A stretch of DNA of 64,000 nt, taken from NCBI GenBank assembly GCA_026770705.1, contig JANJGN010000024.1:27714001-27778000 (forward strand), given 5' to 3'. The notes below the pieces were generated by a model. That model saw only the letters and a list, made by a program, of their open reading frames with translations, was not told the origin of the DNA and made no database searches. Positions 891-21,555 of the stretch are shown here, in pieces. Position 1 is the stretch's first letter, and each line of letters begins with the position of its first letter. Source of the stretch: Isurus oxyrinchus (taxonomy: Eukaryota). Position numbers and translations under genes: made by a program.

Positions 891-1664
891 AATTATTCAA
901 AGTTGCACTTTAAACGTAACTAAAACTTAGAATTTATAACAATGAACTGCAATTCAGGCCAGTGCTGTCTTGTTGTGTGTTGCTAAGTTGATAGGCTCAT
1001 CATTGAACAGTGATTGATGTGAGATGAAGACCAAAGGAGCACAAAAAGATGCTAGATGATTAAATCAACATTAGTCCTCCTAACTAAACGTAGTATAGCG
1101 GCAGCTGGAATTCACCTGGCCAGTGCAAAGGGAGGCGGCAGGGTTTGGGAACAGCAGCTCTTATTGCTTAAAGAGCTAGAAGCTGAGGGGTTTATTCATT
1201 TTCTTCATTGTTGCTTTAATTTTACAGTATTTTAACGTGTGAAGAAACCTCTTACTTTGTTCTGCGCTTTGACAAACAAGCAGACATCTTAGTGTTACGC
1301 TACAAATAGTTTAGAATATATATGTTAAAAACTCTTTTTCAGCAGGGACTTTATGATTAAGAAAACAATGTTAGTGCCGGAAGGCTCAGGCCCTTTTATG
1401 TGCGCTTTTTTTAATGAAAAGGGGCAGTGTCCATCCTTCACTGTTGGGGACAGGAATTTAAATGGGCAGAATTATTGTTTTTTTTTGTTTGTTGTCCAGT
1501 TGAAGGGACATCATCATCATTTCATTTGGCCTTCCTGTAGAATGTAGCTCACCTTTCTGCTGTCATCCATCAGTCTCTTCTAAATTTGGTGGAAACCCAT
1601 CTATCTGAGCAGCTTCAACATTTTTAAAACATCTTCATTGGACCCGTTCTCTGAAAAGCTCGAT

Positions 1665-12398: not shown

Positions 12399-13278
12399 TG
12401 GTGAAGGCCTGCACAATAGGTTTAGATGTTAATGTTAAGTTAATTGCATTGCTACGGTTAAGAATAATCAGGTGCAGGATACTGATTGATTAAAGTTTCC
12501 TGAGCAGATATAAAGAGGGACAGAGATCGATCATTTATTTTATTTTATTGATCATTTGTTTTATTTAAAAGAGAATATAAAGAAGGACAGTGCCCCTTTA
12601 AAGGGGCTATTACTTTAATTTGTTAATTTGCCGATTTTTTATTGTTGTACTAAAAGAATGTAAAGAGGGATGGCTGTCTTTTGAGGAGTCTGTGTTCCAC
12701 ATATATAAAGGTTACCGAGGTTGTGGCCCCTTTTTGATTATTTGGGGGGTGGGGGTTTTGGTTGCACTTTAGCACCATGCACCCAGTGCAGAGCGAGGCG
12801 GATAGGATGGGGGATCATTTGTTAGCCTGCTGTTGGGCCTAGCTAAGGTGGCTGTTAGCATGTCCAGATAGCAGGCATTTGTTTGGCCTAACTGTCTACC
12901 CCTTGACCGCAGCTACATTCATTTCTGGGTGTCCCTGGAGAAAGGGCATGCGGTGTCCGCAAGTACGCTTAAGTCCTCCTGCAACCAGTGAACACCATAG
13001 GGGCTGCAGTGCATCATCTCTGGGAACATTAAAGGAAACTTAGCAAATTAAATTAAAATAAATTTTTGCATTTTGGTTACAGTGCCCTTTAAGGGGCTGT
13101 TAACTAGTTTATTAGTTAATTTGTTAATTAGATTTTTTTTTGGTTTATTTGAGAGAGTATAAAGAGAGACGGCTGGGATACTGGGTGAGTAGGTAGGGGG
13201 CAGGCATATAAAATGCTGCATTCTGTAAATTAATAAACTATTAAGAAAATTATTTGCATCTACTTTCATATTTCACCA
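12399..13278 (+). mobile_element. Small solo-LTR-like host interrupted by Tx1-like insertions
   Basis: Termini TGGTGAA / TTCACCA, TATA-like GATATAAAGAG at 12507, AATAAA at 13232; no clean TSD. Confidence 0.5.
12677..13155 (+). mobile_element. Tx1-like (L1 clade) LINE ORF2 C-terminus and 3' UTR
   Basis: Decayed peptides EESVFHIY.. (zinc-knuckle end) and LLLGLAKVAVSMSR..CLPL..YI..VSLEKGHAVS..; flanked by a 20-bp direct repeat matching at 16/20 (12657-12676, 13156-13175). Confidence 0.7.
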
Positions 13279-13520
13279 TCTGGCTTGGGATCCATTTATC
13301 ATTTGGTATTTCCCCAGGTTTCTGAAAATCAAAAGAAAACCTGGAGAAACTCAGATCAACTTTGGGCAGAGATTAACTCAATGGCTGACCACCTCTTAGA
13401 ATATGTGGTGATCATTTAAAATTCAAAAGCTGATGTCCACTGCTTATTCAAGCCAACCTCATTTCTACATAGCTTCATAATTATCAAGGACTACAAGCCC
13501 TGTTTACAGGTAGTATTAAA

Positions 13521-20533: not shown

Positions 20534-20659
20534 AGCGAAGCCCACATCCCATGAATGCATTTTTAAAAAACTAATTATATTTAATTGTAGGGAGGTGATG
20601 GGCATTAATTGTGGATTCACACGTGCCTCTATAAATAGATACAGACTGAAACAGTGGAT

Positions 20660-20797
20660 AAAACAAAAAAACTGCGGATGCTGGAAATCCAAAACAAAAA
20701 CAGAATTACCTGGAAAAACTCAGCAGGTCTGGCAGCATCGGCGGAGAAGAAAAGAGTTGACGTTTCGAGTCCTCATGACCCTTCGACAGAACTTGAT
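20660..20797 (-). mobile_element. Penelope-like pseudo-LTR tail with hammerhead, same subfamily as 54743-56566
   Basis: Near-identical to the reverse complement of 56462-56566, plus a 3' extension also seen at 30815-30845. Confidence 0.9.
20755..20793 (-). ncRNA. Minimal type I hammerhead ribozyme motif (CUGUCGA variant)
   Basis: AGTT-CTGTCGA-A-GGGTC-ATGAG-GACTC-GAAAC-GTC-AACT on the minus strand. Confidence 0.65.
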
Positions 20798-20902
20798 GTT
20801 AGATTAGAAGGTGCATGCTTGTAATTTGTAACTCAGTATAAATGAAACATGCAAAGATTGGCTCCAGTTCTATCCTACACTAATTGGCTTTCTGGAACTT
20901 AA

Positions 20903-21555
20903 CAAGGACAGCATTGCCAGTAGTCACAGACTTCTTCACTTTCCACTCCTTCCAGACTGGAGCAGGGGACATCTCTAGCAGCTTGCAGTCTGCTGTCCAC
21001 TGCTATGTAGGGAGGTGACTGACCCATTGTGTGCAAAGAGAGGGGAAAACAGTGCCTTCTCTCTTTGCAGATTGAAGCAGGTGTAGCATGCACTTGGCTT
21101 TGGAATGGGATGCTACTGGGTGCACACATGTTCCTTTAAAGGTGATGCGCTGTTTCAAAATTAAGAGATGTACTGCAACTGCAAAGACTGCAACTGGTTT
21201 GTGACCATACCCAACATATCATTTAGGCTAATGCCTGCTATCCTGGCAGCATTATCATGTCTTTATTATGTGCCAGTCTTCTGTACTATCAACATTTAAG
21301 CCACCACAAGAGACCAGGTGATTACTGGACATACGGCTGTCTGCTGACCACCTGGCCCATATCTCTGGTGCGCAACCCACACATATGGGCAACTGAATAT
21401 AATGAGAACCATTTTACCATCAAGCAAACCACTGGGGTGCTCAAGCAATGCTTCTGCTGCCTAGTCTGCTCTGGAAGAACCCTGCAATATTCTCCAAACC
21501 AAATGTCACAATTCATCATGCTGTGCTGCATCCTGCACAACCTCACTATCATGAC
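20903..21555 (+). pseudogene. Harbinger transposase remnant (HARBI1-like)
   Basis: N-terminal part RTALPV..FFTFHSFQTGAGDIS..QSAVHCYV; C-terminal part GD..YGCLLTTW..VRNP..YNENH..IKQTTGVLKQCFCCL..SGRTLQYSP..LCCILHNL. Confidence 0.8.

What the first reader, a model, noticed from the sequence alone, without database searches (positions are those of the whole stretch)
12399..13278. Three Tx1-like retroelement ends stacked at one TATA-box target inside a small LTR-like host
Seen: one motif recurs four times: GATATAAAGAGGGAC (12507), AATATAAAGAAGGAC (12574), AATGTAAAGAGGGATGGCTG (12657) and AGTATAAAGAGAGACGGCTG (13156). Between the copies lie three segments of about 50, 70 and 480 bp, each ending in a T-rich tract followed by AAAAGAG, AAAAG or GAGAG. 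The two longer segments share the palindrome GCCCCTTTAAAGGGGC (12592; variant at 13084), and the longest encodes a Tx1-like ORF2 C-terminus. Removing the segments leaves a roughly 230-bp unit with TGGTGAA/TTCACCA termini, a TATA box and AATAAA. Known: Tx1-clade LINEs are often sequence-specific (Tx1L into the Tx1D transposon, Keno into U2, Mutsu into 5S). Inference: a Tx1 family repeatedly targets the TATA box of an LTR family, each insertion duplicating the target, so one element parasitises another element's promoter. I do not know this target to be described.
Basis: partly seen in the sequence, partly recalled or inferred. Interest (0 to 1): 0.72.

Follow-up and report, generated by a model that had tools for sequence, protein, structure and literature searches.

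The report
Tx1 LINE stacking in Copia LTRs
Three tail pieces of a frog-Tx1-type jumping gene sit stacked at one 13-base spot, the likely TATA box, in the end-repeat of a Copia-type retrotransposon; the same spot is occupied in about a third of such repeats sampled from this shark-like genome, a new example of a targeting habit known from frogs and crocodilians.

Summary
(1) The host is a 226-bp LTR of a GalEa-type Copia retrotransposon at 12427-13301 (TGTTA...TATCA), not 12399-13278. Empty copies carry the motif once; 18 of 53 LTRs found by their right half carry a Tx1 tail at it. (2) The inserts (54, 70, 486 bp) are 5'-truncated copies of an old LINE whose RT groups with Xenopus Tx1L. 36 of 56 Tx1-found loci lie in such LTRs, across four LTR subfamilies; the target duplication is 13-18 bp. 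(3) Promoter capture is not supported: both full-length copies found lack the duplicated TATA motif upstream. Extra observation: 10 of 30 adjacent stacked units start at the same base (1.3% between loci), at times with different 3' UTR types. This suggests new copies land at the 5' junction of older ones and join by homology to them. Tx1 insertion into LTR elements (crocodilians) and tandem stacks (R1) are published. This scan noted the same habit before in other shark genomes, there with hosts labelled Gypsy. A new member of a known kind, with a mechanistic twist.

The parts
12422..12426 (+). Left flank of the LTR; candidate decayed 5-bp target duplication (3 of 5 bases match 13302-13306)
   Evidence: Across 31 copies the 5-bp register matches 50%, against 31% and 26% for 4 and 6 bp. 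Weak for this copy alone.
12427..12508 (+). Left (U3-side) part of a GalEa-type Copia LTR, starting TGTTA
   Evidence: 40 scored matches of 71 candidates in the genome; joined directly to the right part in empty copies
12509..12521 (+). Target motif copy 1 (TATA-like box plus 7 bases), preceded by host sequence
   Evidence: present once in empty LTRs. TATA function inferred from position, untested.
12522..12575 (+). Insert 1: 54-bp Tx1 3' tail; likely the last to insert
   Evidence: Matches tails of other copies, score 64 against null maximum 45; order inferred
12576..12588 (+). Target motif copy 2
   Evidence: the next two bases (AG) are the same as behind copy 1, which alone is weak
12589..12658 (+). 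Insert 2: 70-bp Tx1 3' UTR with the palindrome at 12592
   Evidence: Score 95 against null maximum 45
12659..12676 (+). Target motif copy 3 plus GGCTG: 18-bp duplication of 13158-13175
   Evidence: G as first base behind the motif was seen in 0 of 19 A-type right halves counted, though two other loci show it.
12677..13157 (+). Insert 3: about 480 bp, broken C-terminus of Tx1 ORF2 plus 3' UTR; likely the first to insert
13158..13170 (+). Target motif copy 4, at the 3' junction (inferred bottom-strand nick at its left edge)
13171..13301 (+). Right (R/U5-side) part of the LTR, AATAAA at 13232-13237, ending TATCA
   Evidence: 40 scored matches of 670 candidates; followed by a PBS and gag in 5' LTR copies

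Best explanation
An old Tx1-clade LINE family inserted three times, as 5'-truncated copies, at one 13-base site (the likely TATA box) in a likely solo LTR of a GalEa-type Copia retrotransposon, and each insertion duplicated that site. Shown: the host LTR and its empty form, the fixed 3' junction at the left edge of the motif, the 13-18 bp duplication, and the same site hit in four related LTR subfamilies. Inferred: the APE endonuclease nicks the bottom strand at the left edge of the motif and the top strand about 14 bases downstream (target-primed reverse transcription). The duplication rebuilds host-plus-motif at the 5' junction, so later copies land there and the stack grows leftwards. When the new cDNA reaches the point where the older neighbour begins, it likely anneals to that neighbour and is joined there, which would explain why stacked units often share a start. 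The LTR serves as a dispersed multicopy landing site, not demonstrably as a promoter.
For: Empty hosts: 18 of 29 A-type and 14 of 24 B-type LTRs found by their right half are empty with one motif; 9 and 9 carry a Tx1 tail at the motif; 2 and 1 are other (read by eye). Of 29 found by the left half: 12 empty, 13 Tx1, 4 other (by eye). Specificity: 59 of 89 Tx1 3' ends have the motif within 3 mismatches against 5.5% in shuffles; 25 run into an LTR right half, 40 into another Tx1 unit, 24 other. 36 of 56 Tx1-found loci hold an LTR half on the same strand and the expected side, 1 on the opposite strand; 2 hits in 226 kb of control DNA. Passengers without Tx1 sequence use the same nick: a histone H2B coding copy and a 5S-like piece (E=0.007). 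Host: PBS, termini, about 225 bp length, 5-bp duplication, INT before RT, KARLVA, weak RVT_2 in three copies. Insert: APE motifs and RVT_1; RT groups with Xenopus Tx1L, bootstrap 100. Shared starts: 10 of 30 adjacent pairs in 8 of 17 loci, against 35 of 2651 between loci; different 3' UTR types in two clearly typed same-start pairs. Direction: the beta UTR type lies left of the others in 6 of 6 mixed arrays and its copies are more alike (72.8% against 68.5%). R1 stacks form this way (PMC2718515).
Against: 20 of 56 Tx1-found loci show no LTR half within 1.5 kb, and 30 of 89 ends lack a recognisable motif. Decay, long arrays and later insertions may explain many, but off-target insertion was not measured. 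Same-start units are slightly more alike than controls (mean percentile 0.66 for identity, 0.60 for shared variants), so some could be old tandem duplicates. Leftmost units are not significantly closer to the family profile than rightmost ones (p=0.16, n=10). Many UTRs could not be typed (27 of 107). RVT_2 hits are below Pfam's cut-off and no rve hit was obtained. The three window inserts do not share a start, so the homology-joining step is not shown at this locus. No endonuclease assay and no RNA data.
Confidence: 0.85

Rival explanations
1. Stacks, above all those whose units share a start, arose after a single insertion by tandem duplication or unequal crossing-over between the motif copies.
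For: 10 of 30 adjacent pairs share the start to within 4 bases. Same-start units are a little more alike than controls. The copies are so old (about 80% to the profile) that early duplicates would now look diverged.
Against: The three window units differ in start and tail. Same-start pairs in L021 and L076 have different 3' UTR types. Shared variants are 22% within arrays and 21% between loci. 20 of 30 pairs differ in start.
Confidence: 0.1
2. Promoter capture: the LINE targets the TATA box so that the duplicated box and the LTR enhancer drive its own transcription.
For: Insertions are in the LTR's sense orientation (36 to 1). About 25 of 29 leftmost junctions of truncated copies keep the motif upstream (read by eye). 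The host AATAAA lies about 75 bases downstream of the 3' end and could end a read-through transcript.
Against: Both full-length copies found (L237, L238) start at the nick with about 1 bp duplicated, so no TATA motif lies upstream of them; they carry about 0.95 kb of their own 5' sequence before ORF1. Only two copies, both in B-type 3' LTRs; three further searches found no more.
Confidence: 0.15
3. The site is chosen through a protein bound at the LTR promoter (for example the TATA-binding complex) rather than by sequence reading by the endonuclease.
For: The nick stays at the left edge of the TATA motif across four LTR subfamilies whose right halves differ.
Against: Purified Tx1L endonuclease nicks its target sequence almost exclusively in vitro (PMC1950540). 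About 20 bases around the nick are similar in all four subfamilies. A young sister family ends at a similar core inside a tRNA-like repeat.
Confidence: 0.12
4. The motif is the LINE's own 3' end and no host target exists.
For: The motif follows most 3' ends.
Against: Empty LTRs hold it once with no Tx1 sequence. The leftmost copy is preceded by LTR sequence. Passengers without Tx1 sequence use the same site.
Confidence: 0.02

Closest known systems
Tx1-8_Crp and Tx1-4_AMi, crocodilian Tx1 families (Kojima 2015, PMC4494074; passages and section 15 read; supplement not readable; figures not held)
   Same: [quoted passage not shown]
   Different: The main text names neither the LTR group nor the position; 'TATA' does not occur in it. 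Copia is reported absent from crocodilians (PMC11889832, passages), so their target is unlikely to be Copia. The unseen supplement may bear on this.
Xenopus Tx1L in Tx1D (as cited in PMC4494074 and PMC1950540, passages; the primary paper is not held)
   Same: Closest named protein: 48-49% identity over about 290 RT-region residues of decayed copies, one clade with bootstrap 100. Targets another mobile element through a specific endonuclease.
   Different: The target there is a piggyBac-type DNA transposon, not an LTR promoter motif.
Drosophila R1 tandem arrays (Stage and Eickbush 2009, PMC2718515; passages)
   Same: 14-bp duplication; stacks formed by insertion into the duplication at the 5' end of older copies; in melanogaster-type R1, truncated copies have the duplication while most full-length copies do not.
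   Different: Another clade and target (28S rDNA). The passages read do not describe neighbours sharing one truncation point.
Tandem SINEU-3 in Mariner-N4_AMi (PMC4494074, passage)
   Same: Sequential insertions sandwiching a target duplication, with Tx1 machinery carrying passengers.
   Different: DNA-transposon target and a SINE passenger.
GalEa clade of Copia (PMC3587641 and PMC5445492, passages)
   Same: Host: TGTTA/TATCA termini as in CoRex1 and CoRex2, tRNA-Met PBS, LTR of about 225 bp, 5-bp duplication, KARLVA.
   Different: All internal copies seen are decayed; no RT tree against named GalEa elements was built.

Membership tests
Tx1 clade of non-LTR retrotransposons | ORF2 with APE endonuclease followed by RT | tested here: met
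   L151 aligns with Xenopus Tx1L ORF2 from residue 52 to 1291, E=2e-109; RVT_1 above cut-off in L151 and L159. No Pfam endonuclease hit on the decayed copy.
Tx1 clade of non-LTR retrotransposons | RT groups with Tx1L | tested here: met
   Shark families (bootstrap 100) are sister to Xenopus Tx1L, turtle and sturgeon proteins (joint bootstrap 100). Caveat: rows were projected on the Tx1L sequence, and no named L1, Keno, Kibi or Koshi rows were included.
Tx1 clade of non-LTR retrotransposons | ORF1 upstream of ORF2 | tested here: met
   L237 and L238 align with ORF1 of a young sister family (66%), whose ORF1 has a zinc knuckle (E=0.004, below cut-off).
Target-specific Tx1 families (Kojima's rule: more than 20% of flanks of one type) | Target sequence in more than 20% of flanks | tested here: met
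   36 of 56 loci; rule as in PMC4494074. The sample is the best-scoring matches, not all copies.
Target-specific Tx1 families | Endonuclease cuts the target in vitro | not testable with these tools
   Needs a bench assay.
Tx1-Mar group, Tx1-8_Crp, Tx1-4_AMi | RT clusters with Keno and the crocodilian families | not tested
   Those sequences were not at hand.
GalEa clade of Copia (host) | LTR bordered by TGT...CA, about 235 bp | tested here: met
   Uninterrupted copies measure 214-250 bp; termini match CoRex1 and CoRex2.
GalEa clade of Copia (host) | PBS TGGTAGCAGAG(C) directly behind the 5' LTR | tested here: met
   Exact or decayed PBS behind A-, B- and C-type LTRs; the last base differs. No PBS was found for the D type, which is assigned by LTR similarity (z 12).
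GalEa clade of Copia (host) | 5-bp target duplication | tested here: met
   10 of 31 copies match 4 or 5 of 5 bases; mean 50% against 31% and 26% in the other registers. The 31 include some LTRs that are not solo or were mis-registered.
GalEa clade of Copia (host) | Order PR-INT-RT-RH with Copia-type RT (KARLVA) | tested here: met
   Order and motif read in L111 and L118. RVT_2 at E=0.0015-0.033 in three of four copies scanned, below cut-off; no RVT_1.
GalEa clade of Copia (host) | RT/RNase H groups with named GalEa elements | not tested
   A homolog search with an RT piece found nothing.
Gmr1-type Gypsy (alternative host; also INT before RT) | Gypsy-type RT (RVT_1) | tested here: not met
   No RVT_1 hit in four internal copies; only RVT_2.

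The most novel reading that the evidence does not exclude
A Tx1L-related LINE specialised on the TATA box of GalEa Copia LTRs knocked out about a third of these promoters, and its stacks record a joining rule not found in the papers read: a new cDNA is closed off by annealing to the 5' end of the older copy next door, so one truncation point is handed on to unrelated later copies, while full-length copies use a different top-strand cut with no duplication.
Probability: 0.5. Interest if true: 0.62.

Novelty: new member of a known kind. Interest (0 to 1): 0.43.

Why it matters
It adds a target class, the promoter motif of Copia LTRs, to the known list for Tx1 LINEs, and shows one retroelement disrupting another's promoter on a large scale (about a third of sampled LTRs). 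The stacks are a natural record of how an APE-type LINE finishes its 5' end, a step still poorly understood: shared truncation points and separate junction classes for full-length and truncated copies can be tested. Sister Tx1 families with other targets in the same genome, one of them young, offer a series for studying how endonuclease specificity shifts.

Tried and rejected
Gypsy or ERV host: rejected on RT type, PBS and termini. Pfam on short stop-free pieces was mostly blank. Word-based protein searches with decayed pieces found nothing. Searches for more full-length copies returned only the query itself or chance hits in what read like antigen-receptor V segments (that label is recalled). 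Rfam gave nothing useful on ten whole loci and no tRNA hit for the tRNA-like insert in L036. A tree of the 3' units was star-like and could not say whether neighbours are sisters. Age by array position was not significant. Literature searches for a Tx1 target at an LTR TATA box, in Copia, or in sharks: (0 papers); for shared truncation points in tandem insertions. None showed such a description, but Repbase reports, Kojima and Fujiwara 2004, Christensen et al. 2000 and the supplement of PMC4494074 could not be seen. No RNA data were examined.

Full report
Observation. The four motif copies lie at 12509, 12576, 12659 and 13158, separated by segments of 54, 70 and 486 bp. Each segment ends in a T-rich tract and an AAGAG-like end. 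Segment 3 carries a broken Tx1-like ORF2 C-terminus. Segments 1 and 2 match tails of other copies above all shuffles. The window lies in a genome of about 5 Gb. The nearest named protein relatives of the LINE are from whale shark (55-56%) and turtles (38-39%), so a shark is likely.

Host. The two halves were searched separately. Many copies have the halves joined directly with one motif. Copies followed by internal sequence show a tRNA-Met type PBS and gag. L111 and L118 show gag, protease, integrase, RT and RNase H in Copia order with KARLVA. Pfam gives weak RVT_2 in three of four copies and no RVT_1. Termini, PBS, length and 5-bp duplication fit the GalEa description in PMC3587641 and PMC5445492 (passages). 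No tree against named GalEa elements was built. The window copy has no internal sequence beside it and a 3-of-5 flank match, so it is likely a solo LTR.

Insert. Longer copies reach the endonuclease and RT. In an RT tree the shark families are sister to Xenopus Tx1L, turtle and sturgeon proteins with bootstrap 100; the rows were projected on Tx1L, which may favour that grouping. The family is old: copies are about 80% identical to the family profile.

Specificity. Starting from Tx1 queries, 59 of 89 3' ends are followed by the motif (5.5% in shuffles); 25 run into an LTR right half, 40 into another Tx1 unit and 24 into other sequence. Per locus, 36 of 56 hold an LTR half on the same strand and expected side, 1 on the other strand; 226 kb of control DNA gave 2 hits. 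Twenty loci show none within 1.5 kb. Two near-duplicate loci and the two query loci were left out of the 56. Four LTR subfamilies are hit. B and C were tied to the same PBS and gag; D rests on similarity. Starting from LTR right halves, 18 of 53 carry a Tx1 tail at the motif, 32 are empty and 3 are other (by eye). All samples are best-scoring matches, not random draws.

The motif is the target, not the tail. It is present once in empty LTRs. The leftmost copy in a stack is preceded by LTR sequence. A histone H2B coding copy ends at the same nick and a 5S-like piece starts two bases behind the motif. The duplication is 13 bp plus 0-5 bases. In the window the pair around insert 3 shares five further bases, beginning with an uncommon G.

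How stacks form. Ten of 30 adjacent pairs, in 8 of 17 loci, start at the same base, against 35 of 2651 pairs between loci. Their bodies share variants no more often than units from different loci in the first test (22% against 21%) and only slightly more in a matched test. Two clearly typed same-start pairs have different 3' UTR types, which a plain duplication cannot give. The beta UTR type lies leftmost in 6 of 6 mixed arrays and is the most uniform type, which fits growth at the 5' junction as described for R1 (PMC2718515, passages). The inference is that the DNA just behind the cut is the older copy's start, and the new cDNA anneals to it. Old tandem duplication cannot be excluded for some arrays. 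The window's own three units have different starts.

Promoter capture. Two full-length copies were found, both in B-type 3' LTRs. Both begin at the nick with about 1 bp duplicated and share their first 15 or so bases, so no TATA motif lies upstream of them. About 25 of 29 leftmost junctions of truncated copies keep the motif (by eye, after dropping one duplicate and one spurious row). Melanogaster-type R1 shows a similar split. That the motif is a working TATA box is inferred from its position.

Comparison. Tx1 families inserting into LTR retrotransposons, and tandem insertions around a duplication, are in Kojima 2015 (PMC4494074; passages and section 15; supplement unreadable). Copia is reported absent from crocodilians (PMC11889832, passages), so the Copia target is unlikely to be the crocodilian one. 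The searches listed under Tried and rejected found no description of this target. Earlier notes of this scan report the same habit in other shark genomes with hosts labelled Gypsy, and other Tx1 targets in this genome; those loci were not checked here.

Verdict. A real, well-supported new member of the target-specific Tx1 LINEs. Interest is moderate and rests mainly on the shared truncation points and the junction split.

Noticed in passing
window 20570-20905: A second, diverged GalEa-like LTR with an empty TATA-like motif at 20630 and an unrelated insertion about 16 bases behind it.
   Followed up: partly
window 13025-13061: About 35 bp of the insert's 3' end are inverted relative to most copies; L005, L007 and L014 show the same orientation.
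   Followed up: no
L102:1020-1342 (same place as L111:1-324): Histone H2B coding retrocopy inserted at the TATA nick of a 5' LTR, ending at its stop codon, with no long duplication.
   Followed up: partly
L033:1601-1712: 5S rRNA-like sequence directly behind the motif (E=0.007), followed by a weak tRNA-like match (E=1.2).
   Followed up: partly
L036, about 1430-1515 (minus strand): Insert of about 75 bp flanked by two motif copies; looks tRNA-like by recall, no Rfam support.
   Followed up: partly
L208-L216: Young sister Tx1 family (95-96% identity among copies) whose 3' end runs into a tRNA-like short repeat at a core similar to the TATA motif; that repeat has a Tx1-like tail. In L214 the array lies before an LTR-like right half.
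   Followed up: partly
L217, L219-L221, L226: Older sister Tx1 family followed by a shared non-LTR repeat, so a third target in this genome.
   Followed up: no
L091:5292-6233: Harbinger-like transposase pieces (label recalled) inside a decayed Copia internal region.
   Followed up: no
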